Below are positions 4,442 to 15,391 of a stretch of DNA of 64,000 nt, piece by piece. This DNA comes from Acidimicrobiaceae bacterium. Its GTDB lineage: Bacteria; Actinomycetota; Acidimicrobiia; Acidimicrobiales; Ilumatobacteraceae. The translations under genes and the position numbers were made by a program. The notes under the pieces are model-generated. The model was given only the letters and a program-made list of their open reading frames with translations. It was not told the origin of the DNA and did not search any database. The stretch covers positions 3,437 to 67,436 of the forward strand of contig JADKGZ010000018.1 of the NCBI GenBank assembly GCA_016722025.1. The letters are read 5' to 3'. Position 1 is the stretch's first letter, and each line of letters begins with the position of its first letter.

Positions 4442-5955
4442 TGTCGGTCGTCAGCGCCGAGGTGGTGGTGGTCGGGGCCGGCTCGGCCGGCTGCGTGGTG
4501 GCTGGGCGCCTGGCCGAGCAGGGCCGCGACGTGTTGCTGCTGGAAGCCGGCCCCGACTACGGCCCGGTGGGTTCCGGTCGCTGGCCGGCGGAGCTGTTGA
4601 GTGCCCGCATGCTGGCCACCACGCACGACTGGGGCTACACGTCGGGCCGGTGGGTGTTCGAGCGAGCGAGGGTGATGGGTGGCTGCAGCAGCCACAACGG
4701 CGCCATCGCCGCTGTGGGCCACCGTGCCGACTACGACGGATGGGGTCTGCCGGGCTGGGCCGGCGACGACGTGGCACCCTTGTTCCAGCAGGTGATCGAG
4801 CGCATGCGGGTTCGCGCGTACGAGGCTCACGAGGCCGGGCCGTTCCACGCCCGCTGCCTCGACGCGGCGGCCGATCTCGGCTGGACGATCGCGAGCGACC
4901 TGTGCGACCTCGATGCCGGGGCTTCGTTCGGCCTGGAGACGGTCAACGTGGTCGGCCACACTCGTTGGAACGCCGGGTTCGCCTACCTCGACCACGTGCG
5001 TGGCGGCTCGCTGCGCGTGCTCGACGAGGTGATGGTGGATCGTCTGGTCGCGTGGGACGGCTCGGGGTCCTCGGGCGGCTCGGGGTCCTCCGGCGGCACG
5101 GGGTCGTCCGGCGGCACGGTGCGGCTCGCCGCCGAACGACGTGGCGAACCCATCGTCATCGAGGGCGGCACGGTGGTGCTGGCCGGCGGGGTGTACGGCA
5201 CGCCGTTGCTGCTCGAACGATCGGGCATCGGCGCCCCCGAGGCGCTGCGCGCGGCCGGGGTGCAGGTTCGTGTCGCGCTGCCGGGGGTGGGCGGCAACTT
5301 GCACGACCACTCGATGGTGCACGCCGACCGGCGCGTCGGCCCCGTGTTGCAGCAGTGGCTCGACGAGGCCGCCGCCACCGGCTTCCTGCCCGAGGAGCAG
5401 ACGTTGGGCAAGTTCGTCTCGTCGGTGTCGACGGATGGGTTGTACGACACACATGTGTTCCCGGTGTGTGCCAGCGATCAGACCAGCTTCCTGCATGGTC
5501 GTGTGCATGTCGAAGTGGCGTGCATGACCCCTCGCAGCCGGGGTGCGGTGCACATCAGCTCGGCGGCCCCGCAGGCCCACCCGCACATCGACCACGGCTA
5601 TCTCAACGACACGGCCAACCCCGACGGCAGCAGCCACGACCTGGCCGTGTTGCGCGATGGCCTGGTGCACGCCGAACGCCTGCTCCAGCACCCGCGGCTG
5701 GCGCAGGTGCTGGGCGAGCGGCTCACCGACATGAGCACCGATTCGGCCATCCGCGACACGGTGACGCACTACTACCACCCGGTGGGCACCTGTGCGATGG
5801 GCGATGGCCCGCTGGCCGTGTGCGATGCCGATGGCCGGGTGCACGGCGTCCCCGGGGTGGTCGTGGCCGACGTGTGCCTGATGCCGCAGATCCCGCGCGG
5901 CAACACCAACCTGCCGGCAGTGATGATCGGCGAACGGATCGCGCTCACGCTGTGA
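4441..5955 (+). CDS. GMC family FAD-dependent oxidoreductase
   Basis: N-terminal VVVVGAGSAGCVVAGRLAE dinucleotide fold and C-terminal GMC signature region ...HPVGTCAMG. The start ATG shares its A with the upstream TGA (TGATG). Confidence 0.85.
   Translation: MSVVSAEVVVVGAGSAGCVVAGRLAEQGRDVLLLEAGPDYGPVGSGRWPAELLSARMLATTHDWGYTSGRWVFERARVMGGCSSHNGAIAAVGHRADYDGWGLPGWAGDDVAPLFQQVIERMRVRAYEAHEAGPFHARCLDAAADLGWTIASDLCDLDAGASFGLETVNVVGHTRWNAGFAYLDHVRGGSLRVLDEVMVDRLVAWDGSGSSGGSGSSGGTGSSGGTVRLAAERRGEPIVIEGGTVVLAGGVYGTPLLLERSGIGAPEALRAAGVQVRVALPGVGGNLHDHSMVHADRRVGPVLQQWLDEAAATGFLPEEQTLGKFVSSVSTDGLYDTHVFPVCASDQTSFLHGRVHVEVACMTPRSRGAVHISSAAPQAHPHIDHGYLNDTANPDGSSHDLAVLRDGLVHAERLLQHPRLAQVLGERLTDMSTDSAIRDTVTHYYHPVGTCAMGDGPLAVCDADGRVHGVPGVVVADVCLMPQIPRGNTNLPAVMIGERIALTL
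5059..5121 (+). repeat. in-frame 18-bp tandem repeat (about 3.5 copies) encoding GSGSSG GSGSSG GTGSSG GT inside the GMC oxidoreductase
   Basis: Units at 5059-5076, 5077-5094 and 5095-5112, plus a partial unit to 5121. Confidence 0.9.
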
Positions 5956-5966
5956 GCGCTGCTGCC

Positions 5967-6326
5967 TCAGGCGGTGGGCTCGGGCGAGAACTCGCAGAAC
6001 GCGGCATAGGCCCGCGGGCCGTAGATCGTTCCTGGGCCACCGTTCATCAGCATCGCCACGCCCACTGCTTCGGCAGCTTCCTGGCGGGTCGCCCCGGCCT
6101 TGGCCGCACCTTCCGCGTGGGAGGCGATGCAGCCGTCGCAGTGCTCGACGACGCCGATGGCGAACGCGATCAGCTCCTTCGTCTTCACGTCGAGGGCGCC
6201 GGCGGCGAACGCTGCGTGGTGGAACTCGCCGAATCCCTTGTACACATCGGGGATCGCGTGGCGCAGCTCGCGGTGCAGCGGGCGCAACTCGTCGAGCACT
6301 GCTTTGCCGTAACTGTGATCGGTCAT
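5967..6326 (-). CDS. carboxymuconolactone decarboxylase / AhpD-like family protein
   Basis: 119 aa. CxxC-type motif EHCDGCIASH typical of AhpD/CMD. AGGAGG RBS upstream. Confidence 0.85.
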   Translation of the reverse strand: MTDHSYGKAVLDELRPLHRELRHAIPDVYKGFGEFHHAAFAAGALDVKTKELIAFAIGVVEHCDGCIASHAEGAAKAGATRQEAAEAVGVAMLMNGGPGTIYGPRAYAAFCEFSPEPTA

Positions 6327-6342
6327 GGCTGACCTCCTGCTT

Positions 6343-6379
6343 TCGTGGTTCGGGTCGTTCGGGTCGTTCGGGGTCGTTC
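6343..6379. repeat. 9-bp tandem repeat GGGTCGTTC (3 full copies plus 1 degenerate)
   Basis: Copies at 6352-6360, 6361-6369 and 6371-6379, with a degenerate copy at 6343-6351. Lies between the MMPL stop and the CMD-family gene start. Confidence 0.85.
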
Positions 6380-8563
6380 AGTGCGAGAAGTGCACGTGGG
6401 GCAGGCGCTTGTCGAGCCAGGCGGGGATCCACCAGTTGCGCTCGCCGAGCAGCTTCATCAACGATGGCACCAACATCATGCGCACGACGGTGGCGTCGAG
6501 CAACACGGCGAGCGCCAAGGTGATGCCCAGCTCGGTGGGTGGGATGGGCCCGGTGACGCCGAAGGCGATGAACACCACGATCATGATGAGCGCTGCGTTG
6601 GTGATCGGCCGGCCGGTGCGGGCGATGCCGTCGCGGATCGCCAGTTGGGTGTCGCCGGTGGCCTCGTAGCGCTCGCGGATGGCGGCCAGCAGGAACAGCT
6701 GGTAGTCCATCGACAGGCCGAAGAGCAGGGCGAAGAAGAACAACGGTGCCCACGCATCGACGAAGCCCTGCGGGTGGATGCCGATCAGGCTTGCTCCCCA
6801 CCCGTGCTGGAACACCAGCGTGGCGAAGCCGAAGCTGGCGCCGACGCTGATGAAGTTGAGCAGGATCGACGAGATGGCCAACGCCAGGCTGCGGAACACG
6901 ACCAGCAGCAGCACGAACGCCACCAGCGTGATCACCGCGATGGCGAGCGGCGCTTTGCCGGTGAGCACCTCGGTGAGGTCGTAGTTCTGAGCGGCAGGAC
7001 CACCGACCTCGGCAGTGGGTGCGGCCTCGCCGATCGAGCTGCGCAGGCGGGCGATCAAGTCGGAGGTGGCGGCGTCATCGACCGCAGTGGCCGGAGTGAT
7101 GCGCACGACCGTGCGGCCGGTGGTTTCCGAAGGTTGGGCGACGATGCGCGCATCCACGACGCCGGCGTCGGCCTGTGCCGTGGCAACCACTTGGTCGGCC
7201 TGCGCGGCGTCGACGGTGACGAACAGCGGGCCGGCGGCACCAGGGCCGAATGCCGAGACGACCATCTCGTAGCCGTCGCGGCTGGAGCGGCCCTCGTCGA
7301 CCACGCAGGCGCCGGGCATGCCGAGCCGCATCCCGAGCGCCGGCGCGGCCAGTACCAGCAGCATGCCCAGGCCGATGGCCAGGGTGATCGCGGGGCGCTT
7401 CATCGCCCGAGCAGTCCATCGGGTCCAGCGGCCTTCGGCGGCGCGGTCGGGGTCGTCGGCGGCGCTGGCCACGAGCACCCGGTCACCCAAGGCCACCAGC
7501 ACGGCCGGCAGCAGTGTGAGTGACGCGGCGGCAACGGCCACCACGGAGAAGATCATGCCCAGTGCCATCGACCGGAAGACCATGACCGGCACGACGAACA
7601 CCGCAGCAAGGGACAGGACGACGGCGAGTGCAGAGAGGAACACGGCCTTGCCGGCGGTGTCGAGCGTTGCGGCGATCGCCCTCCGGCGTCCTTGCCGTCC
7701 TCGCGCTCCTCCCGGTAGCGCGAGACGATGAACAGGCTGTAGTCGATGCCGACGGCGAGGCCGATCATCATCGAGAAGTTCATCGACCACACCGACAGCG
7801 GCGTGAACGAAGTGGCCAGGTGGAGGCTGGCGAAGCCGACCGCGATGCCCGACACGGCCAGGATCAACGGCAACCCGGCAGCGATGGCCGAGCCGAATGC
7901 GATGAACAGCAGGATGAGGGTGGGGAGACCCGAGAGCAGTTCAGCCTTGTGCAGTGCCTCCTCGTTCGAGTTGTTGAAGTCGCTCCACACTGGCCACTCG
8001 CCGGTGACCTCGGCGCGGGCACCCGCCGGCAGCTCGAGGTCGGCGACCCGGTCGATGACGAGGCCGGCCGACTCTGGACGCTGCGCGTCGTCGGTTGCGA
8101 GCAGTTCCACCGGGATGAGTGCGGTGAGGCCGTCCTGGGAGATGAGGCCCGCTTCCGGCGGCATGGTCATCGGGTCGGCGACGGCCTGCACGCCCTCCGC
8201 GCCGGTGAGTGCTGCCACCACGGCGGCGACGGCAGACGGGTCGTCGACGATCGGCGTGGCCTGCTGCACGACCACGACGGCCGCCTCGGCGCCCACCTCG
8301 GGGAAGTCGCTGCGCAGCTCGTCGCGCACACGCTGGGCGATCGACCCCTGCGCTTCCCAGCCGGCGCCCGACAGCGAGCTGCTGACGCTGATCGCCAGCG
8401 GTGCCGCGGACAGCGCCACGACCAGCCAGGCGAAGATCAGGGGCTTGCGTCGGCGGGCGGAGAAGCGGCCGAGGCGAGCGAACCAGTGCTCGGCTGCCTG
8501 CCCTTCGAGAGCGCTGTCGCCGTTGGCGTCGTGGTCGGTGGGCGTGTCGAGAGTTGCAGCCAT
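6378..8563 (-). pseudogene. MMPL/RND-superfamily membrane transporter interrupted by a -1 frameshift near 7678-7684
   Basis: ORF 7553-8563 reads ...SLFIVSRYREEREDGKDAG and then turns to nonsense. ORF 6378-7790 resumes with AIAATLDTAGKAVFLSALAVV... in the -1 frame. Together they form one typical two-bundle MMPL protein. Confidence 0.8.
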
Positions 8564-8579
8564 GACGGCATGCTAGCGA

Positions 8580-8595
8580 ATACCCCCGGGGGTAT
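8580..8595. promoter_or_regulatory. perfect 16-bp palindrome ATACCCCCGGGGGTAT (copy 1), candidate operator
   Basis: Read directly from the sequence. It lies 17 nt upstream of the MMPL ATG and 100 nt upstream of the DUF2892 ATG. An identical element is at 12373-12388. Confidence 0.6.
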
Positions 8596-8694
8596 ACAAC
8601 CTGACACGTGCGAGGTGATGTGACGGATCGCGCGAATGGCGCATCTACTCCGGTGGCGGCGCACATGCCGCTCACTTCCCAGAGGAGTCACCTC

Positions 8695-8916
8695 ATGTCC
8701 TTCGCTCGTTTCATGGCAGGTCCGGTTGGTCGCGGCGTTCGAGTCGCGGCCGGCCTGGCGATGATCATTGCCGGCATCGCAATCGGCTCTACCGGCGGAT
8801 GGATCCTTGCCGTCGTTGGCGTGCTGCCGTTGCTGGCCGGGGCGCTCAACGTGTGCGCGCTCGCGCCGATCCTGAAGGCGCCGTTCAGCGGGAAGGCCGC
8901 GTTGAACAGCAAGTAG
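8695..8916 (+). CDS. DUF2892 (YgaP-like) small membrane protein
   Basis: 73 aa with two hydrophobic helices. The ...GRGVRVAAGLAMIIAG...LLAGALNVCALAPIL pattern is typical of DUF2892. GAGGAG RBS upstream. Confidence 0.75.
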   Translation: MSFARFMAGPVGRGVRVAAGLAMIIAGIAIGSTGGWILAVVGVLPLLAGALNVCALAPILKAPFSGKAALNSK

Positions 8917-8930
8917 GGCAGACTTCCCGC

Positions 8931-9458
8931 GTGGATTCGTCGGATCGTCCGCTGACGCCCGCTGAGCGTTCGTGGCTCATCGAGCTGTTCGAGCGCACGG
9001 TCGACGGCGCGCATAACGTTGCGTACCGGCTGGTGTGGAACCATGCCGATGCCCTCGACGTGGTGCAGAGTGCGTTCGTCAGCGCTGCTCGTCACCGTCA
9101 CCAGCTCCGCGATCCGCAACGGGCGCGGAGCTGGTTGCTGGCATTGCCTCATCGCGAAGCACTGATGGTGCTTCGGTCGCGCCGCGACGTGCCCACCGAC
9201 CCGGTGGACCTGCCCGAACCCGTGCTCGTCGAGGTCGACCCGGCGGAGTCCGCGATCCGCAGCGAGCTGGCGCGCCTGCTCGACTGTGCGATTCGCGACC
9301 TGCCCGATCTGTTGCGAGCGGCGTTCGTGTTGCGCGACGTGGAGGAGCTGCCGATGAACGAAGTGGCCCATGTGCTGGAGATCGGCGAGTCGGCGGCGAA
9401 GATGCGAGTCGCCCGTGCTCGTGAGAGCCTGCGCATCACGTTGGCCGGAAGGATCTGA
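8931..9458 (+). CDS. ECF (group IV) sigma-70 family sigma factor
   Basis: Region 2 (DALDVVQSAFV...) and region 4 HTH (ELPMNEVAHVLEIGESAAKMRVARAR). GTG start at 8931. Confidence 0.85.
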   Translation: MDSSDRPLTPAERSWLIELFERTVDGAHNVAYRLVWNHADALDVVQSAFVSAARHRHQLRDPQRARSWLLALPHREALMVLRSRRDVPTDPVDLPEPVLVEVDPAESAIRSELARLLDCAIRDLPDLLRAAFVLRDVEELPMNEVAHVLEIGESAAKMRVARARESLRITLAGRI

Positions 9459-9459
9459 G

Positions 9460-9735
9460 ATGAACTGCAGTGAGTTGGAAGCGCATCTCACCGACTTCCT
9501 CGACGGTCAGCTCGGCCCGGCCACTGAAGCTGCTGCGCTCGAGCACATCGCCTCCTGTGCACGATGCGAGGCAGTGCTCGCGGGCACACGCGCGGTGATC
9601 GACCTGGCGGGCGACGTGGGCAGAGTGGAACTCGAGGCGGCCGGTCGTGAGCGCCTGCTGCAGAGCATCCTCCACGCGTCGCGCTCGCGCGCGGTGCCAG
9701 ACGGCAGCGTGGGTTCAGCTGAGCGCGAGCGCTGA
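9460..9735 (+). CDS. soluble zinc-binding anti-sigma factor (ZAS, RsrA-like)
   Basis: Starts 1 nt after the sigma gene stop. Carries the H-x3-C-x2-C motif (HIASCARC) plus an upstream Cys3. No TM segment. 91 aa. Confidence 0.75.
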   Translation: MNCSELEAHLTDFLDGQLGPATEAAALEHIASCARCEAVLAGTRAVIDLAGDVGRVELEAAGRERLLQSILHASRSRAVPDGSVGSAERER

Positions 9736-10572
9736 GCGCACTGCCGTGTACACGGCCACCACCACCAGCAGGCCAACGAACCAGCGCTGCAAGGAACTGG
9801 AGTCGCGGGTGCTCGCCAGGCGGCTGCCGATCACCACACCGATCATGCTGGCGATCGTGAAGGGGATCACCGTTCCCCACTCGATCGATCCCGCTTGCAG
9901 CCGAGTGGAGAGCGCAACGACCGAGTTGATCGTGATCACGAGCAGCGACGTGCCCACCGCCTCCGCCATCGTGAAGCCGAGGGCGAGCACCAGTGCCGGC
10001 ACGATGACGAAGCCGCCGCCGACGCCGAAGAAGCCGGTCAGCAGACCGACCACGGTTCCTGCGACGACGACCTTCACGATCGTGCCCGGGTCGATGTGGC
10101 GCGCCGTGACGGCGGCGCCACCAGCACCCGGGGCCGTGCCGGGCGTGTCGTCCGGCGTGTCGTCGGGCGTGTCGTCGGAAGGGCTACCGGCTGATGTCGA
10201 TGGTGTCGTGGCCTTGCTCGCTCGTCGCCACATCGCATAGGCAGCGACCAGCATCAGGCCGGAGAACGCGAGCAGGAGCACATCGGGGTCGGCGGCCTTG
10301 TTCCAGTGCGAGCCCAACAGCGAACCACCGATGCCGGCGAGCCCGAAGATGGTGCCGGCGACGAACCGCACGCGGCCGGCGCGCCAGTGAGGGGCGATGC
10401 CGATCAGGGCAGTGAGAGCGACGAGCACCAGCGAGGTGGTCGTGGCCTGCTTCGGGCTCTGCCCGGCGGCGTACACCAGTGCCGGCACTGCCAGGATGGA
10501 CCCGCCGCCGCCCAGCGCCCCCAGCGAGATGCCGATGAGGAGGCCAAGTGGTGAGGCCAGCAGCGCGCGCAT
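9715..10572 (-). CDS. TauE/SafE family sulfite/anion exporter
   Basis: Two repeated 4-TM halves with GGGGSILAVPAL and GVGGGFVIVPAL motifs. Confidence 0.85.
   Translation of the reverse strand: MRALLASPLGLLIGISLGALGGGGSILAVPALVYAAGQSPKQATTTSLVLVALTALIGIAPHWRAGRVRFVAGTIFGLAGIGGSLLGSHWNKAADPDVLLLAFSGLMLVAAYAMWRRASKATTPSTSAGSPSDDTPDDTPDDTPGTAPGAGGAAVTARHIDPGTIVKVVVAGTVVGLLTGFFGVGGGFVIVPALVLALGFTMAEAVGTSLLVITINSVVALSTRLQAGSIEWGTVIPFTIASMIGVVIGSRLASTRDSSSLQRWFVGLLVVVAVYTAVRSALALS
10142..10177 (-). repeat. in-frame 12-bp tandem repeat x3 encoding DDTP DDTP DDTP in the central loop of TauE
   Basis: Units at 10142-10153, 10154-10165 and 10166-10177. Confidence 0.9.
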
Positions 10573-10579
10573 GAAACGC

Positions 10580-10921
10580 TCAGATCACCACGCCGGGGTT
10601 GCCGGCGTGATTGACCATCGGGTGCCCGAAGCTGGACCATGCGTACATGCCGCCGGTCATGTTGAACGCGTCGAAGCCTTGCTCGCGCAGCCAAGCAGTG
10701 ACACGCGCCGAGCGGTTTCCCGAGCGGCAGATGCAGATCGTGCGCCGAGTGCGGTCGAGCTCTCCGATGCGATCGGCGAGCTCGCTCATCGCAATGTGAA
10801 CGGCGTTGGGTGCGTGTCCGCTCATCCACTCTTCGTACTCGCGCACGTCGAGCAACACGGTGTCGGCCGGTGCGGATGCAGCGGCGTCCACATCGATGGA
10901 GGGCAACAGGTCGGGCGCCAT
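10580..10921 (-). CDS. single-domain rhodanese sulfurtransferase
   Basis: 113 aa with active-site loop CRSGNRS. The ATG overlaps the stop of the upstream gene (TGATG). Confidence 0.85.
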   Translation of the reverse strand: MAPDLLPSIDVDAAASAPADTVLLDVREYEEWMSGHAPNAVHIAMSELADRIGELDRTRRTICICRSGNRSARVTAWLREQGFDAFNMTGGMYAWSSFGHPMVNHAGNPGVVI

Positions 10922-12315
10922 CACTGCGTGCCTTCCGCGAGAGCGTGGGCCTGCCAGGCGGTGTAGCCGCCGACGAGATCGCTCACGTCGCTGAAGCCAT
11001 GTGAGCGCAGCAGGCTGGAGGCGATGGCCGAGCGATAGCCGCCGGCGCAGAACACGACCGTCGGTGCAGCGGGGTCGAGCTGGTCGAGGCTGTTCAAGAG
11101 TGCGGGAAGGCTGATCTTCCGGGAGCCGGCGATGCTGCCGAGGGCGACCTCGCCCGGGTTGCGCACATCCACGAGCACCAGCTGCGGCACGGTGGCGATC
11201 CGCTCGACAAGCGTGTCGGCCGACAGTCGCGACAGCGGTTCCACGTGCTCGGGGTGCGCGAGGAACGCCTCGAACGGCTGCGCCAGTGCACCCAGCACGC
11301 GATCGAAGCCGATGCGTGCGAGTCGCACCTTGGCTTCTGCTTCGTGGCCCGGCGGAGTGACCAGGACGATCGGGGTCTCCGGTCGCATCACCTCGCCGGC
11401 GTATTCGGCGAAACGGCCGCCGAGACCGACGTTCACCGACCCGCGCAGGTGGCCGGCCGCGAAGGCCATGTCGTCGCGCGCATCGAGAACGACGGCGCCG
11501 TCGTGCTGATGGGCCAGCACCTGCTCGATGGTGAGCGGGGCGACGCTGACATCCTCGGCCAGCAGCTCGCGCAGCTCGCGGTTGCGATTCGCGGCGAAGG
11601 AGAAGTAGAGCGGCGCCACCGACTGACCCTGGGTGACCGCTTCGACGAAGTCGTCCTCGCTCATCGGGGCGAGCGCGTAGTTGGTACGCCGCTGCTCGCC
11701 GATGGTGGAGACCGTCTCGGTGGAGAGGTTCTTGCCGCACGCCGACCCTGCACCGTGTGCGGGAAACACCTTGGTCGCATCGGGCAGCGTGAGCAGTTGC
11801 TCGTGCAGCGAGTGGTACAGCTGCCGGCCCAGCTCCTCGGCGGTGACGCCGACGGATGCCAGCAGGTCGGGTCGACCGACGTCGCCGATGAACAGCGTGT
11901 CGCCGGTGAGCACGCCGTAGGGCAGATCGTCGGTGCCGTGGGGATAGATGACGATGCTGATCGACCTCCGTGTGTGCCCGGGGGTCTCGCGAACCTGCAG
12001 CGCGACCTCGCCGAGGTCGATGACCGCACCGTGCGCGTAGGTCGTGATCGGGAACTCGGCGCGCCCTTCGGCAGCGCTGCCGTAGCCGATCGTGGCGCCG
12101 GTGTGCGCGGCGAGCTCGAGATGGCCGGAGAGGAAGTCGGCATGGAAGTGAGTTTCCAACACGTGAGTGATGGTGAGGCCATGCGCCTCGGCGTCGGCGA
12201 GGTACTCCGCAACATCGCGCTGGGGGTCGACCACCACGGCCCTGCCAGTGGTGGTGTCACCGATGAGGTAGCTGGCGTGCGAGAGGCACCCGAGGTAGTA
12301 CTGGCGGAAGAACAC
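10921..12315 (-). CDS. MBL-fold persulfide dioxygenase fused to rhodanese domains (CstB-like)
   Basis: N-terminal metallo-beta-lactamase fold (ETHFHADF). C-terminal rhodanese with catalytic loop CAGGYRS. AAGGAG RBS 8 nt before GTG 12315. Confidence 0.9.
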   Translation of the reverse strand: MFFRQYYLGCLSHASYLIGDTTTGRAVVVDPQRDVAEYLADAEAHGLTITHVLETHFHADFLSGHLELAAHTGATIGYGSAAEGRAEFPITTYAHGAVIDLGEVALQVRETPGHTRRSISIVIYPHGTDDLPYGVLTGDTLFIGDVGRPDLLASVGVTAEELGRQLYHSLHEQLLTLPDATKVFPAHGAGSACGKNLSTETVSTIGEQRRTNYALAPMSEDDFVEAVTQGQSVAPLYFSFAANRNRELRELLAEDVSVAPLTIEQVLAHQHDGAVVLDARDDMAFAAGHLRGSVNVGLGGRFAEYAGEVMRPETPIVLVTPPGHEAEAKVRLARIGFDRVLGALAQPFEAFLAHPEHVEPLSRLSADTLVERIATVPQLVLVDVRNPGEVALGSIAGSRKISLPALLNSLDQLDPAAPTVVFCAGGYRSAIASSLLRSHGFSDVSDLVGGYTAWQAHALAEGTQ

Positions 12316-12368
12316 GATTGATGCTCCTTGTCGAGAACGGTCGAGGTTCGAGGCGGTTCTTGTGTGGC

Positions 12369-12394
12369 AACTATACCCCCGGGGGTATTATTCC
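12369..12394 (-). promoter_or_regulatory. candidate ECF (SigR/SigH-type) promoter GGAAT-N18-GTT
   Basis: The minus strand reads GGAAT aatacccccgggggtata GTT, so the spacer is exactly 18 nt. It lies 54 nt upstream of the CstB-like GTG. Confidence 0.5.
12373..12388. promoter_or_regulatory. perfect 16-bp palindrome ATACCCCCGGGGGTAT (copy 2), candidate operator
   Basis: Identical to 8580-8595. With flanks, the 18-mer AATACCCCCGGGGGTATA is identical in the direction of the downstream operon at both sites. Confidence 0.6.
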
Positions 12395-12412
12395 AACTCG
12401 TTGGATCGACGC

Positions 12413-13144
12413 TCAACCACTCGAGCCGCGCTCCATGTCGCTGGCAATGATCGCGTCGTAGTCGGCCTGTGAGATGTACGCGGGCGTGTAGTCGGCGCCA
12501 TTCTTCGCGAGCTGCTTCGTGAACGCACGCAGGTGGTTGCGGGACCCCTTCTCCAGGTTCGCATACACCAGCGCCAGGTCGGGTGTGTCGGTGGCGAGTG
12601 ACCGCAGGTCGGAGATGTCGAGGTCTTCGATCGTGGCGCCCACCTCGAGTGCATCGACCAGCGAGCTGCTCCCTCGTTCGACGAGGCTGGTGTAGAGCGA
12701 CTGCAGGTCGGCGTTGGTGAACTCACCGACCGCGTTCCCCGCAGCAGGGTCGGCGAGGTCGTAGCGATCCAGCAACGTCAGCACCGCGTCGGTGTGCGTC
12801 AGCTCGGAGGACGAGATGTTGTCGAACGCCTGCAGCTGCCACTGGTCGTAGAGCGTCGAGTACACGTCATGAGCCAGCTTCTCCTCCTCGCGCATGCGCA
12901 GCAGGCCCGCCGTCTCGGCGGTCGTCAGCTCCGCCTTGGGCATGGCCTCGAGCCGGGTGTCCAGCACCGCAGGATCGAAGTTGCTCTCGCCGTTGGAGCC
13001 GACCTGCATCGGGCCCGATCCGCCGCCGTTGCCAGTGCCGTTGCCGTTGCCGTTGCCGCCGGACGAGCAGGCGGCGAGCACCACGGCGGCCACCACCATC
13101 ACTGCCGTGCGGCGCGCGGAAACCTCTTCGACTCTGCATCGCAT
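12413..13144 (-). CDS. DUF2202 ferritin-like domain lipoprotein
   Basis: Lipobox VLAACSS followed by a GNGNGNGTGNGGGS linker. MREEEKLAHDVY and SSELTHTDA motifs are typical of DUF2202. Start uncertain. Confidence 0.65.
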   Translation of the reverse strand: MRCRVEEVSARRTAVMVVAAVVLAACSSGGNGNGNGTGNGGGSGPMQVGSNGESNFDPAVLDTRLEAMPKAELTTAETAGLLRMREEEKLAHDVYSTLYDQWQLQAFDNISSSELTHTDAVLTLLDRYDLADPAAGNAVGEFTNADLQSLYTSLVERGSSSLVDALEVGATIEDLDISDLRSLATDTPDLALVYANLEKGSRNHLRAFTKQLAKNGADYTPAYISQADYDAIIASDMERGSSG

Positions 13145-13256
13145 CCTCCTTCGGATACCTCCCAGGGTATGACGAGGAGCGTTGCGTGGATACTGCCGAA
13201 AGGCCTCTTGGTGGAACGCTGGCGGTGGACGCAACTGCTGAGCTCGCAGGCTGGGC

Positions 13257-14645
13257 TCAGCAGTCGATCTCGTAGAACTGCACGGGGGCACCTGGCAGCG
13301 GGCTCAGCTCGAGACCGATGGTGAACGTGGCGCCGGTGCCCTGCACCACGATGTCGCCGCGGGTGGCTGCCGCGGGGCGCAACTCGACGATGTGCAGTGG
13401 CCCGTGTGCTGCGATCAACCGGCCAGCTTCCGCACGTCGCCTGACCAGCGCGTCGTCGAGATCGACGTTGTCGTCGAACAGCGCTGCGGCATCGCCGTCG
13501 CTCCACTCGTTGAGCAGGGCCACCAGTCGGTGGGCGGCAGCCGCCCAGTGCGGCCCCGCCGGCACCGGAGTGGCCGGCGCGTGGCCATGAGCGAGCAGCA
13601 CATCGAGCATGCGCATGGTGAGCACGCCCATCGGCGCGTAGGTGGTGTTGCCCAGCGCGATCGCACCAACGCCGCGACCCGCCAGCCAGCGCATGTTGCT
13701 GCCGTAGCCCGGGAGGCCTCCGGCGTGTGCAACCACCTTGCCCAGGCTGGGTTCGTCGCGCACGTTGAGCCCGAATCCGTAGCCCGCGGGGCACGAGCGC
13801 CCGGCCACCGTCGTGACGCCGATGTAGGTGTGCGCACGCTGCATCTCGCGCCGGCTGGCCGCCGAGAGGCCGTCGCTCGCGGGCTGATGCGGCAGCGAGT
13901 TGGCCGAGTCCAGCCAGGCGATCCACTTGGCGAGGTCGGCGACGGTGCTCCACAACCCACCCATCGGGGCGATCTCGCCGTCGCCGATGGGTGTCGGCCA
14001 GTCGCGGACCAGTTCCCCGTCGCGCCAACGGTGTGGTCGAGCCCAGTGTTCGTGCTCGGGTCGCACCCACGTGGTGTCGACCATGCCCAAGGGCTGCAGC
14101 AGTCGACTCGTGATGTGCTGCTGCACGCGGCTGCCGGTGGCGCGCAGCACAGCCCGGCCGATCATGCCGAAGCCGAGGTTGCTGTACTCGTAGGCGGTGT
14201 CGGGCAGGTGAGCAAAGGTTGGCCCTGCGGCGTAGATGCCGTCGATCTCCTCGGCCGTGATGTCGAGGTGACGGTCGGCCCACGCATCGTCGGTGGCCAA
14301 ACCCGAGGTCATCGAGAGCAGGTGGCGCAGCGTGATGGGCGGCGAACCGGCGGGGCCGGACACCGAGCCCAACTCGGGCGCGTGACGCGCGACCGGGTCG
14401 TCGAGCTGCCAGACACCTTCGTCGCGCAGCGCGAGCACCACTGCCGCGGTGAAGCTCTTCGTCATCGATGCGATGCGGTAGACCGCTCGCTCGTCGGCCG
14501 GTAGGTGGTCGTGGAGGGTGCCGGTGCATCCGTGCTCGACGAGCTGGCCGCCGGCGACGACGCCCCACGAGATGGAGGCGACGTGCTCGTCGAGCGCAGT
14601 CGTGTCGGAGAGTTCTTGCAGCTCGGCACGGCACTCAGGAGTCAC
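13257..14645 (-). CDS. serine hydrolase (class C beta-lactamase / PBP-like family)
   Basis: S-x-x-K motif SMTK in ...YRIASMTKSFTAAVVLAL. Start placed at GTG 14645, although ATG 14702 is also possible. Confidence 0.8.
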   Translation of the reverse strand: MTPECRAELQELSDTTALDEHVASISWGVVAGGQLVEHGCTGTLHDHLPADERAVYRIASMTKSFTAAVVLALRDEGVWQLDDPVARHAPELGSVSGPAGSPPITLRHLLSMTSGLATDDAWADRHLDITAEEIDGIYAAGPTFAHLPDTAYEYSNLGFGMIGRAVLRATGSRVQQHITSRLLQPLGMVDTTWVRPEHEHWARPHRWRDGELVRDWPTPIGDGEIAPMGGLWSTVADLAKWIAWLDSANSLPHQPASDGLSAASRREMQRAHTYIGVTTVAGRSCPAGYGFGLNVRDEPSLGKVVAHAGGLPGYGSNMRWLAGRGVGAIALGNTTYAPMGVLTMRMLDVLLAHGHAPATPVPAGPHWAAAAHRLVALLNEWSDGDAAALFDDNVDLDDALVRRRAEAGRLIAAHGPLHIVELRPAAATRGDIVVQGTGATFTIGLELSPLPGAPVQFYEIDC

Positions 14646-14656
14646 GGAGAGCGACG

Positions 14657-15391
14657 CTACCCGCCCAGCCCGCCGAGGCTCCAGCACCGCCACCCATCCC
14701 ATCGCCCGACCGCAGCCGGGCACGCCCCGACAGCGCTACGAAGGTGGCTGGCCTGGGAGAGGGAGGCGGTGATGGCGGTGAGGAGCTGGTCGTAGGTGTG
14801 GTTCGCGGGGAACTGCGGGAACTGGGCCGTGATGGCGTCGGGGGCGTGGAACCAGAAGCCGGCGTCGGCCGCGCCCAGCATGGCAGCGTCGTTGTACGAG
14901 TCGCCGGCGGCCACGACCCGGTAGTTCAACCCGCGCAACGCATTGACCGCGTGGCGCTTCTGATCGGGCATGCGCAGCGCGTAGTCGATGACGCGGTCGT
15001 CGTGCACGATCAACTGGTGGCAGAAGATGGCGGGCATGCCCAGCTGCCGCATCAGCGGCGCCGCGAACTGCTCGAACGTGTCACTGAGGATGATCACCTG
15101 CGTGCGGGCGCGCAGGGCATCGAGGAAGTCGCGTGCGCCATCCATCGGCTCGAGCCCGGCGATCACATCGGTGATCGTGCTCATCCGCAGCCCGTGTTGG
15201 GCCAGCAACGCCAGGCGCCCCTTCATCAGCACGTCGTAGTCGGGTTCGTCGCGGGTGGTGCGCCGCAACGCCTCGATGCCGGTGCGCTCGGCAACAGCGA
15301 TCCAGATCTCCGGCACCAGCACCCCCTCCAGGTCGAGGGTGACGATGGTCTGCTGCGGCACGGTCTGTTGCGGGGCTGCTGTCGCGTTCAC
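14657..15391 (-). CDS. thrH: phosphoserine phosphatase / homoserine phosphotransferase ThrH (HAD family)
   Basis: LDLEGVLVPEIWIAVAERTGI...TTRDEPDYDVLM...ILSDTF...AAGDSYND closely follows Pseudomonas ThrH as I remember it. Confidence 0.85.
   Translation of the reverse strand: MNATAAPQQTVPQQTIVTLDLEGVLVPEIWIAVAERTGIEALRRTTRDEPDYDVLMKGRLALLAQHGLRMSTITDVIAGLEPMDGARDFLDALRARTQVIILSDTFEQFAAPLMRQLGMPAIFCHQLIVHDDRVIDYALRMPDQKRHAVNALRGLNYRVVAAGDSYNDAAMLGAADAGFWFHAPDAITAQFPQFPANHTYDQLLTAITASLSQASHLRSAVGACPAAVGRWDGWRCWSLGGLGG

What the first reader, a model, noticed from the sequence alone, without database searches (positions are those of the whole stretch)
8579..12394. Identical 18-nt palindromic element occurs twice and brackets a persulfide/sulfite-handling locus
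AATACCCCCGGGGGTATA occurs at 8579-8596 on the plus strand and as an exact reverse-strand copy at 12372-12389. The core is a perfect 16-bp palindrome, ATACCCCCGGGGGTAT. Each copy sits just upstream of an operon pointing into the locus. One operon is DUF2892, ECF sigma and ZAS anti-sigma (plus strand). The other is the CstB-like persulfide dioxygenase-rhodanese fusion, a rhodanese and TauE (minus strand). In both, the right half-site runs into a -10-like TATA(C/G)(A/T). The architecture (AT-rich arms, C5/G5 core) resembles the operators I recall for CsoR/RcnR-family repressors, which include the persulfide sensor CstR. No CsoR-like (DUF156) or ArsR-type (BigR/SqrR) gene is visible in this window, so the cognate regulator is unassigned.
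Basis: partly seen in the sequence, partly recalled or inferred. Interest (0 to 1): 0.75.

Follow-up and report, generated by a model that had tools for sequence, protein, structure and literature searches.

The report
Persulfide-repressor (CstR-type) operator sites
The repeated palindrome is almost certainly the DNA docking site of a known kind of sulfur-stress repressor (CstR) that switches on sulfide-detoxifying genes in an uncultured wastewater actinobacterium, so it is real but largely ordinary, with a few extra target genes worth a look.

Summary
ATACCCCCGGGGGTAT is exact at 8580-8595 and 12373-12388. All three fit ATACC-N6-GGTAT (0.11 expected by chance), which is the EMSA-defined binding site of the Streptomyces coelicolor CstR-type repressor ScCsoR.

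I scanned species-representative genomes for the exact 16-mer. Of these, 64 carry a CstB-like gene, 59 a rhodanese, 33 TauE and 54 a CsoR-family gene. Among those 54, 51 are the two-Cys, no-His CstR type.

- Site 1 most likely serves the outward-facing MMPL plus AhpD-like unit. The DUF2892/sigma/anti-sigma operon has its own conserved ECF-like promoter and keeps it in relatives that lack the palindrome.
- The 18-nt identity is strain-specific. Centre bases vary among strains; the arms do not.

Additions:
- DUF2202, MMPL and the AhpD-like gene recur as targets.
- The cstB promoter reads GGAATA-N17-GTTG (SigR/SigH type), with the operator filling the spacer.

Verdict: a new member of a known kind, of modest interest.

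The parts
8580..8595 (.). Operator site 1, ATACCCCCGGGGGTAT. It sits in the divergent MMPL / DUF2892 intergenic region, 16 nt from the MMPL ATG.
   Evidence: Arms are invariant in 16 same-species sequences. The equivalent site in L127 lies between CMD and DUF2892. The palindrome lies directly upstream of MMPL genes in L046, L078, L079 and L096.
12373..12388 (.). Operator site 2, ATACCCCCGGGGGTAT. It is 57 nt upstream of the cstB-like GTG and 24 nt downstream of the DUF2202 stop codon.
   Evidence: The same position occurs upstream of CstB-like genes in many loci.
13155..13170 (.). Operator site 3, ATACCTCCCAGGGTAT (ATACCCTGGGAGGTAT in gene orientation).
   Evidence: It is conserved in same-species contigs. 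Similar ATACCCT..GGGTAT sites lie upstream of DUF2202 in L179-L182, L088 and L083.
12368..12394 (-). Putative SigR/SigH-type promoter of the cstB operon: GGAATA (12394-12389), N17 (12388-12372, holding the palindrome), GTTG (12371-12368). It overlaps a sigma-70-like TATAGT.
   Evidence: Sequence. The pattern GGAA-N19-GTT around the palindrome occurs in 7 of 352 oriented sites, from at least 4 lineages, against about 0.1 expected. Consensus sequences come from PMC5005934 and PMC4803200. Function is inferred.
10921..12315 (-). CstB-like persulfide dioxygenase: MBL domain plus two rhodanese domains, 464 aa.
   Evidence: Pfam. Full-length matches to PDB 3tp9 (5.8e-84) and 3r2u (4.5e-58), and partial matches to ETHE1 and BpPRF.
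10580..10921 (-). Single-domain rhodanese, 113 aa. Its start overlaps the cstB stop codon.
9715..10572 (-). TauE/SafE-type sulfite exporter.
   Evidence: Pfam 2.2e-49.
12413..13144 (-). DUF2202 ferritin-like lipoprotein (lipobox LAAC), directly downstream of site 3.
   Evidence: Pfam 1.7e-58. PDB 3q4n, MJ0754, uncharacterised. In a gene-first test, 4 of 6 homologues carry the site.
6378..8563 (-). MMPL-family transporter gene, directly downstream of site 1 on the minus strand. It carries a 1-nt deletion near 7683 in this window; the ORF is an intact 728 aa in the five same-species contigs aligned and in ten further contigs with called genes.
5967..6326 (-). AhpD-like CMD protein with a CxxC motif (EHCDGCIASH), downstream of MMPL.
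   Evidence: In L179 it is the last gene of the DUF2202-cstB-rhd-tauE unit. In L127 it is the gene divergent from the site.
8570..8575 (-). -10-like TAGCAT, 4 nt from the palindrome and 6 nt from the MMPL ATG (leaderless-type geometry).
   Evidence: Sequence. TAGGAT in L127 and TAGGGT in L051 occupy the same offset. Inferred.
8695..9735 (+). DUF2892 (8695-8916), ECF sigma (8931-9458) and RsrA-like ZAS anti-sigma (9460-9735). It is probably a separate unit.
   Evidence: The anti-sigma carries H-x3-C-x2-C (HIASCARC) and an N-terminal Cys.
8618..8646 (+). Conserved ECF-like promoter candidate ATGTGAC-N17-CATCT upstream of DUF2892.
   Evidence: Conserved in the window, L126, L127 and L129. It is the only match to the strict pattern in the window. 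Inferred.

Best explanation
The three ATACC-N6-GGTAT palindromes are operators for a CstR-type repressor. CstR is the persulfide-sensing branch of the CsoR family, with two Cys and no His. The repressor gene lies outside this 64-kb window.

With its cysteines reduced, the tetrameric repressor sits on each operator. Site 2 fills the spacer between the -35 and -10 of the cstB-rhodanese-tauE promoter. Site 1 covers the spacer/-35 area of the leftward MMPL plus AhpD-like promoter. Site 3 lies 10 nt from the DUF2202 start codon. When sulfide-derived persulfides or polysulfides modify or cross-link the two sensor cysteines, the repressor leaves the DNA. The cell then makes the enzymes that oxidise persulfide to sulfite, the sulfite exporter, and the accessory proteins.

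Shown here: the sequence match to an EMSA-defined operator, the positions of the sites, and cross-genome co-occurrence with cst genes and CstR-type regulators. Inferred: binding itself, the promoter elements, the inducer, and the existence of the regulator in this genome.
For: - All three sites fit ATACC-N6-GGTAT exactly. This is the site defined by EMSA for S. coelicolor ScCsoR, which represses csoR, pdo, rhodanese and tauE and is released by polysulfide through Cys37 and Cys66 (PMC7533328). The S. mitis cst operator ATATACCCTTATGGGGTATAT is of the same type (PMC8643695).
- I scanned species-representative genomes for the exact 16-mer. Within the 8-kb blocks, 64 hold a CstB-like gene, 59 a rhodanese, 54 a CsoR-family gene, 33 TauE, 7 MMPL and 4 DUF2202. 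In all, 84 of 120 have at least one of these, and 90 of 120 when thioredoxin-, SQR- and CoADR-flanked sites are added.
- Of the 54 CsoR-family proteins, 51 have the Cys pair with a non-His residue at the Cu-ligand position. PF02583 membership was confirmed for two of them.
- Genes immediately downstream of the motif cluster as follows: rhodanese-domain proteins 65, CstR 16, thioredoxin 11, SQR-like 5, MMPL 5, DUF2202 3.
- The same loci hold 41 further ATACC-N6-GGTAT sites against 0.25 expected.
- Within the species, the arms are invariant while the centre is polymorphic. In the diverged relative L127, sites are kept at the CMD/DUF2892 and cstB promoters.
- In the gene-first test, 4 of 6 DUF2202 homologues carry the site 0-80 nt upstream.
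- A very conserved CstR family exists in related Microthrixaceae and Acidimicrobiales: more than 1400 proteins, with the listed hits 83-94% identical. The one context examined has tandem ATACC-N6-GGTAT sites in front of a cstB paralogue.
Against: No CsoR-family gene is in the window, nor in the 4 kb beyond its left end seen in same-species contigs. I could not assign a specific regulator to this species. No binding or expression data exist. The same palindrome also sits next to a Cu-type C-H-C CsoR with CopZ in one Firmicute (L038) and near P-type ATPases in three loci. Sequence alone therefore cannot exclude cross-talk with a copper CsoR. About a quarter of the 120 loci show no sulfur gene; some of these are non-actinobacterial and probably chance matches.
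Confidence: 0.85

Rival explanations
1. The palindromes are operators of a copper-sensing CsoR/RicR-type repressor (C-H-C), so the locus would respond to copper rather than to reactive sulfur.
For: CsoR, RicR and CstR operators look alike; Lu et al. aligned the ScCsoR site with those of G. thermodenitrificans CsoR and M. tuberculosis RicR. L038 has the identical 16-mer upstream of a C-H-C CsoR and CopZ. Three loci have a P-type ATPase 240-270 nt from the motif.
Against: The window targets are sulfur genes, and no CopA, CopZ or multicopper oxidase is next to any site. Only 2 of 54 regulators near the exact motif are C-H-C, and only 1 of 120 loci has CopZ.
Confidence: 0.05
2. The locus is controlled only by its own ECF sigma and ZAS anti-sigma pair, and the palindromes are incidental sequence or are recognised by that system.
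For: The sigma/anti-sigma operon is embedded in the locus. It sits next to tauE-rhd-cstB in four related genomes: the window, L126, L127 and L128. The anti-sigma has an RsrA-like H-x3-C-x2-C motif. The cstB promoter reads as an ECF-type GGAATA-N17-GTTG.
Against: Sigma factors do not read 16-bp perfect palindromes. L179 and L180 have the same GGAAT-N18-GTTG cstB promoter and palindrome without the sigma operon, while L127 has the sigma operon but no GGAAT. The candidate promoter of the sigma operon itself (TGTGAC-N17-CATCT) is a different motif. The palindrome tracks cstR genes across phyla.
Confidence: 0.04
3. The palindromes act at the RNA level as hairpins (terminator, stabiliser or attenuator), for example ending the DUF2202 transcript at site 2.
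For: A perfect GC-rich palindrome can form a 6-bp stem. Site 2 lies 24 nt after the DUF2202 stop codon.
Against: Folding energies are no better than shuffles (z = -0.16, -0.07, +0.82, -0.98). There is no T-tract and no terminator call in 8300-13400. There is no Rfam match. Natural variants and site 3 break the central pairing but keep the arms, which is the pattern expected for a protein site.
Confidence: 0.03
4. The palindrome is a REP-like or mobile dispersed repeat with no regulatory role.
For: Two identical copies lie in inverted orientation 3.8 kb apart.
Against: Only three sites occur in 64 kb, all at promoters of one functional locus. Flanks beyond the 16 bp are unrelated. No transposase is present. 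The cross-genome association with sulfur genes is strong.
Confidence: 0.02

Closest known systems
Streptomyces coelicolor ScCsoR (SCO0620) sulfane-sulfur circuit (Lu et al. 2020, PMC7533328)
   Same: The operator consensus is the same, ATACC-N6-GGTAT. The core targets are the same: a persulfide dioxygenase-rhodanese fusion, a rhodanese and TauE. The operator overlaps the core promoter, and the phylum is the same.
   Different: Here the regulator gene is not adjacent and is absent from 64 kb. Each promoter has a single site rather than the -48/-9 pair. There are extra candidate targets (DUF2202, MMPL, AhpD-like CMD). The cstB promoter looks SigR/SigH-type.
Staphylococcus aureus / Enterococcus / Streptococcus CstR and cst operons (Giedroc lab; PMC8643695)
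   Same: The regulators found beside the motif are of the x-C-x-C CsoR family, and the operator is a GC-core palindrome with AT-rich ends. CstB-like and rhodanese genes are the targets.
   Different: The sequence-similarity cluster differs: actinomycete cluster 3, which that paper calls 'largely uncharacterized'. The low-molecular-weight thiol context also differs. The Firmicute systems have no TauE/MMPL/DUF2202 set.
Cu(I)-sensing CsoR / RicR operators (B. subtilis, S. lividans, M. tuberculosis)
   Same: The operator architecture is similar, and in one case (L038) the 16-mer is identical.
   Different: The regulated genes here are sulfur genes, not copper genes. Associated regulators lack the His ligand in 51 of 54 cases.
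SigR-RsrA / SigH-RshA thiol-stress regulons of actinobacteria
   Same: The cstB promoter matches GGAAYR-N17-GTT / GGAAT...GTTG exactly. The locus encodes a short cytoplasmic ZAS anti-sigma with the H-x3-C-x2-C motif and an N-terminal Cys (the RsrA-like Cys/His spacing is from my own knowledge).
   Different: The locus sigma is not a SigH/SigR orthologue by NCBIfam: no such model appears among its best 25 hits. Its own candidate promoter is a different motif. Placing a repressor operator in the spacer is not a described feature of SigR/SigH promoters in the papers searched.

Membership tests
CstR/ScCsoR-type operator (CsoR-family DNA site) | 16-bp inverted repeat ATACC-N6-GGTAT with a C/G-rich centre | tested here: met
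   Three exact matches against 0.11 expected. The consensus is taken from PMC7533328.
CstR/ScCsoR-type operator (CsoR-family DNA site) | Lies in the promoter region of persulfide-oxidation genes | tested here: met
   Site 2 is 57 nt upstream of cstB and overlaps predicted promoter elements. Sites 1 and 3 are 16 and 10 nt from start codons.
CstR/ScCsoR-type operator (CsoR-family DNA site) | The same motif accompanies x-C-x-C CsoR-family genes in other genomes | tested here: met
   54 of 120 loci hold a CsoR-family gene, and 51 of those are x-C-x-C.
CstR/ScCsoR-type operator (CsoR-family DNA site) | A cognate CstR is encoded in this genome | tested here: inconclusive
   None in the 64-kb window or in the extra 4 kb seen in relatives. 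The rest of the genome is not available. A conserved CstR family exists in related Acidimicrobiia.
CstR/ScCsoR-type operator (CsoR-family DNA site) | Bound by reduced CstR and released by persulfide or polysulfide | not testable with these tools
   Needs EMSA or anisotropy measurements and expression assays.
cst / ScPDO sulfane-sulfur oxidation gene circuit | Persulfide dioxygenase (MBL fold) fused to rhodanese, plus a separate rhodanese and a TauE exporter in one unit | tested here: met
   Pfam. PDB 3tp9, 3r2u and ETHE1 matches. HxHxDH-type motif ETHFHADF and a C-terminal CAGGYRS loop are read from the translation.
cst / ScPDO sulfane-sulfur oxidation gene circuit | Repressor gene adjacent to the operon and autoregulated | tested here: not met
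   No PF02583-like ORF in the window.
Copper CsoR/RicR regulon | Sites precede copper efflux, chaperone or oxidase genes, and the regulator has C-H-C ligands | tested here: not met
   No copper genes at the sites. Only 2 of 54 associated regulators are C-H-C.
REP-like dispersed repeat | Many copies at functionally unrelated intergenic sites | tested here: not met
   Three sites in 64 kb, all in one locus. Cross-genome copies sit next to sulfur genes. A whole-genome count for this species was not possible.
SigR/SigH-type (ECF12-like) promoter | GGAAYR-N17-GTT (GGAAT-N18-GTTG) | tested here: met
   GGAATA-N17-GTTG at 12394-12368 on the minus strand. The arrangement recurs in at least 4 lineages. 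Consensus.
SigR/SigH-type (ECF12-like) promoter | Transcription depends on a SigR/SigH orthologue | not testable with these tools
   Needs transcription start mapping and in vitro transcription.
ZAS (zinc-binding) anti-sigma factor | H-x3-C-x2-C motif in an N-terminal anti-sigma domain | tested here: met
   zf-HC2 8.6e-08. The sequence reads HIASCARC. The hit to antisig_RsrA is weak and below cut-off.

The most novel reading that the evidence does not exclude
In this and at least three other actinobacterial lineages, the CstR operator sits exactly in the 17-18-nt spacer of a SigR/SigH-type promoter (GGAAT-N18-GTTG). The persulfide-oxidation operon would then need two thiol-based sensors at once: release of an ECF sigma from a ZAS anti-sigma, and release of CstR. 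In addition, the actinobacterial CstR regulon would regularly include proteins never linked to sulfide stress: the secreted ferritin-like DUF2202 lipoprotein, an MMPL transporter and an AhpD-like CxxC protein.
Probability: 0.4. Interest if true: 0.5.

Novelty: new member of a known kind. Interest (0 to 1): 0.3.

Why it matters
The result assigns three promoters of an abundant, uncultured wastewater Acidimicrobiia species to a known persulfide-sensing circuit, so the finding itself is explained. Three small leads follow:
- DUF2202 has a solved but uncharacterised structure (MJ0754) and is named in one paper of the library. Together with an MMPL transporter and an AhpD-like protein, it gains a testable link to reactive-sulfur stress.
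- A composite promoter (SigR/SigH-type elements with a CstR operator as the spacer) would be a simple natural AND gate between disulfide stress and persulfide stress.
- The motif ATACC-N6-GGTAT can be used to predict CstR regulons across the largely uncharacterised actinomycete branch of the family.

Tried and rejected
- Regulator in the window: tblastn with remembered CsoR, CstR, RcnR, BigR and SqrR sequences found nothing. A profile built from 54 motif-linked CsoR-family proteins, run against the six-frame translation, also found nothing. Pfam on small coding ORFs found no ArsR- or CsoR-type protein, but this was not exhaustive for ArsR.
- Source genome: exact look-ups of cstB and of two end-of-window proteins failed. 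The CMD protein did find the species in many wastewater assemblies and three MAGs. These add only 4 kb beyond the window's left end, holding a helicase and cytochrome bd but no cstR.
- Naming the species' CstR: a search with the Microthrixaceae CstR gave more than 1400 near-identical proteins. The commonest, P0042, sits in another locus (cstR, two sites, cstB paralogue), but I could not show that it belongs to the same genome.
- RNA readings: hairpin energies are unremarkable and there is no Rfam hit.
- The sigma-70 promoter scan found a candidate only at site 2, TTGAGC-18-AATAAT. I give it less weight than the cross-lineage GGAAT-N18-GTT pattern.
- The idea that the locus sigma drives the cstB promoter was considered and judged unlikely, because there is no co-variation between the sigma operon and the promoter type.

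Full report
**Observation.** The 18-mer AATACCCCCGGGGGTATA is at 8579-8596, and its exact reverse complement is at 12372-12389. The perfect 16-bp palindrome ATACCCCCGGGGGTAT occurs at 8580-8595 and 12373-12388. Allowing three mismatches brings in a third site, ATACCTCCCAGGGTAT at 13155-13170, against 0.01 matches expected. The pattern ATACC-N6-GGTAT gives exactly these three sites in 64 kb, against 0.11 expected.

**Gene map.** The gene map comes:
- AhpD-like CMD protein, 5967-6326 (-)
- MMPL transporter, 6378-8563 (-)
- site 1
- DUF2892, 8695-8916 (+)
- ECF sigma, 8931-9458 (+)
- zf-HC2 anti-sigma, 9460-9735 (+)
- TauE, 9715-10572 (-)
- rhodanese, 10580-10921 (-)
- MBL plus two rhodanese domains, 10921-12315 (-)
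- site 2
- DUF2202 lipoprotein, 12413-13144 (-)
- site 3
- a serine beta-lactamase-like gene

**What the motif is.** ATACC-n6-GGTAT is the binding site defined by EMSA for ScCsoR (SCO0620) of Streptomyces coelicolor. ScCsoR is a CstR-type member of the CsoR family. It represses its own gene, a persulfide dioxygenase, a rhodanese and tauE, and it is released by polysulfide through Cys37 and Cys66 (PMC7533328). Fakhoury et al. place ScCsoR in a cluster of 3,175 'largely uncharacterized' actinomycete candidate persulfide sensors. They also give a streptococcal cst operator of the same type, ATATACCCTTATGGGGTATAT (PMC8643695).

**Cross-genome test.** I scanned one genome per species for the exact 16-mer.
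- Within the 8-kb blocks, 64 carry a CstB-like gene, 59 a rhodanese, 54 a CsoR-family gene, 33 TauE, 7 MMPL, 4 DUF2202 and 1 CopZ.
- At least one of the CstB, rhodanese, TauE, CsoR-family, MMPL, DUF2202 or DUF2892 queries hits in 84 of 120 loci. The count is 90 of 120 when thioredoxin-, SQR- and CoADR-flanked sites are added.
- Of the 54 CsoR-family proteins, 51 have the Cys pair with Gly, Ala, Ser, Asn or Thr where copper sensors have His. Two are C-H-C.
- The same loci hold 41 additional ATACC-N6-GGTAT sites against 0.25 expected, so multi-operator loci like this one are common.

This rules out a REP-like element and strongly favours a CstR operator.

**The regulator.** A profile built from the motif-linked regulators finds nothing in the six-frame translation of the window (best E = 2.5). 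tblastn with remembered CsoR, CstR, RcnR, BigR and SqrR sequences also finds nothing.

The species is an uncultured Acidimicrobiia organism that is common in wastewater assemblies; its CMD protein appears in 417 blocks of the collection. NCBI names the MAGs that carry it Acidimicrobiaceae or Ilumatobacteraceae. Same-species contigs add 4 kb to the left of the window, holding a helicase and cytochrome bd but no cstR.

In the nearest relatives, cstR sits next to the MMPL gene. L051 has palindrome, then cstR, then MMPL. L078 has cstR and MMPL divergent. L079 has MMPL followed by cstR. A very conserved CstR family exists in this group (more than 1400 proteins; the listed hits are 83-94% identical to the L051 protein). 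One widespread member precedes two tandem sites and a second cstB-like gene. I could not prove that any of these belongs to the window's genome.

**Which genes the sites serve.**

*Site 2.* In the direction of cstB the sequence reads GGAATA, then A-TACCCCCGGGGGTAT-A (N17), then GTTG. This is a perfect match to the SigR/SigH-type promoter: GGAAT and GTTG (PMC5005934) and GGAAYR-N17-GTT (PMC4803200). The operator fills the spacer. Among 352 oriented sites from a non-redundant locus set, GGAA-N19-GTT framing the palindrome occurs seven times:
- the window, L179 and L180 (Acidimicrobiia)
- L081 and L043 (two Streptomyces)
- L050 (Demequina)
- L021 (Micromonospora)

Other spacings occur once each, and about 0.1 is expected by chance. 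A sigma-70-like TATAGT overlaps this element, and the scan tool offers TTGAGC-18-AATAAT. On any of these readings the operator overlaps the core promoter.

*Site 1.* Relatives separate the two candidate targets. L126 and L129 keep DUF2892-sigma-anti-sigma and a conserved upstream element (A)TGTGAC-N17-C(G/A)TC(T/A), at window 8618-8646. They have no divergent CMD or MMPL gene and no palindrome. L127 has a divergent CMD gene and keeps the palindrome. On the minus strand, a -10-like TAGCAT (TAGGAT in L127, TAGGGT in L051) lies 3-4 nt from the palindrome. In the window it is 6 nt from the MMPL ATG, a leaderless-type geometry. The exact palindrome also lies 4-57 nt upstream of MMPL genes in L046, L078, L079 and L096. 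In L179 the CMD gene is the last gene of a DUF2202-cstB-rhd-tauE-CMD unit. I conclude that site 1 mainly controls the outward MMPL-CMD unit. Control of the sigma operon from about -65 cannot be excluded, but it has no comparative support.

*Site 3.* It is conserved in same-species contigs. In a gene-first test, four of six diverse DUF2202 homologues (L179-L182) carry an exact ATACC-N6-GGTAT 0-80 nt upstream of the start, and one of these is a stand-alone gene. The pattern-first scan found the same arrangement in Nanopelagicales and Gordonia.

**Population data.** Across 15 contigs of the species the arms never change. The central base is polymorphic at both perfect sites, roughly half and half, and base 8579 is A or G. 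The identity of the two 18-mers is therefore strain-specific. The pattern of constraint is what a protein site with a tolerant centre predicts, and not what an RNA stem predicts. RNA folding of the sites is no better than shuffles, no terminator-like site was found in 8300-13400, and no Rfam family matches 5500-15000.

**Mechanism proposed.** Reduced CstR occupies the three operators and blocks RNA polymerase. Persulfide or polysulfide modifies its two cysteines and releases it. The cell then makes:
- CstB (persulfide to sulfite, with thiosulfate handling by the rhodanese domains)
- the rhodanese
- TauE (sulfite export)
- the AhpD-like CxxC protein
- the MMPL transporter
- the DUF2202 lipoprotein

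The enzymology is inferred from family membership. The regulatory steps are inferred from ScCsoR and CstR work. A possible extra layer is that the cstB promoter needs a SigR/SigH-type sigma. The locus sigma is probably not that factor. It is not a SigH/SigR orthologue by NCBIfam. Its candidate own promoter differs. Its presence does not co-vary with the GGAAT promoter.

**Comparison and novelty.** This is a new member of a known kind: the actinomycete ScCsoR/CstR circuit. It differs from the S. coelicolor case in four ways: the regulator is unlinked, each promoter has a single site, there are extra targets, and the promoter may be composite. In the library searched, DUF2202 is named in one paper, which is on ferrosomes. 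No listed paper on bacterial CstR or persulfide dioxygenase also mentions SigR or SigH. These two points are modest new leads, not established findings.

**Verdict.** Confidence that these are CstR-type operators is 0.85. Interest is 0.3.

Noticed in passing
window ~7683 (within MMPL gene 6378-8563, minus strand): A single-base deletion splits the MMPL gene into two overlapping ORFs (7553-8563 and 6378-7790). Five aligned contigs of the same species have an intact 728-aa ORF, as do ten further contigs with called genes. This is either a strain-specific pseudogene or an assembly error.
   Followed up: yes
window 12368-12394, minus strand: GGAATA-N17-GTTG is a perfect SigR/SigH-type promoter whose spacer is the CstR-type palindrome. 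The same arrangement (GGAA-N19-GTT) recurs at CstR-type sites in Streptomyces, Demequina, Micromonospora and two other Acidimicrobiia loci.
   Followed up: partly
window 8618-8646, plus strand: ATGTGAC-N17-CATCT lies upstream of DUF2892. It is conserved in diverged relatives (L126, L127, L129) as (A)TGTGAC-N17-C(G/A)TC(T/A). It is probably the autoregulated ECF promoter of the DUF2892-sigma-anti-sigma operon.
   Followed up: partly
window 9460-9735 (+) and 9715-10572 (-): The ZAS anti-sigma gene and tauE converge, and their 3' ends overlap by about 21 nt. The 91-aa anti-sigma has no membrane segment. It has Cys3 and His29-x3-Cys33-x2-Cys36, the same spacing as RsrA Cys11/His37/Cys41/Cys44 (from my own knowledge), which suggests a redox-sensitive switch.
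   Followed up: no
window 12413-13144 (DUF2202) and loci L179-L182, L083, L088: DUF2202 is a ferritin-like protein with a solved but uncharacterised structure (MJ0754, PDB 3q4n). It is repeatedly preceded by a CstR-type operator in several actinobacterial orders. Its Asn/Gly-rich linker after the lipobox varies in length among strains (242-244 aa).
   Followed up: partly
loci L001, L009, L019, L066, L070, L075, L080, L094 and L040, L059, L091, L092, L101: The exact palindrome also lies immediately upstream of thioredoxin genes (11 loci) and SQR-like flavoproteins (5 loci). This suggests a wider actinobacterial CstR regulon than the four-gene S. coelicolor circuit.
   Followed up: partly
L169-L178, about 3-4 kb beyond the left end of the window: In same-species contigs an HrpA-like helicase and cytochrome bd oxidase subunit I lie just left of the window. 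Cytochrome bd is a terminal oxidase known to tolerate sulfide (own knowledge), and it sits about 10 kb from the cst locus. No operator was checked there.
   Followed up: no
L159-L168 (cstR P0042 context): A widespread wastewater Acidimicrobiia cstR is followed by two ATACC-N6-GGTAT sites 23 bp apart and a second MBL-rhodanese gene, in a ppk/whiB/sdh neighbourhood. It may be the unlinked regulator locus of this or a sister species.
   Followed up: partly
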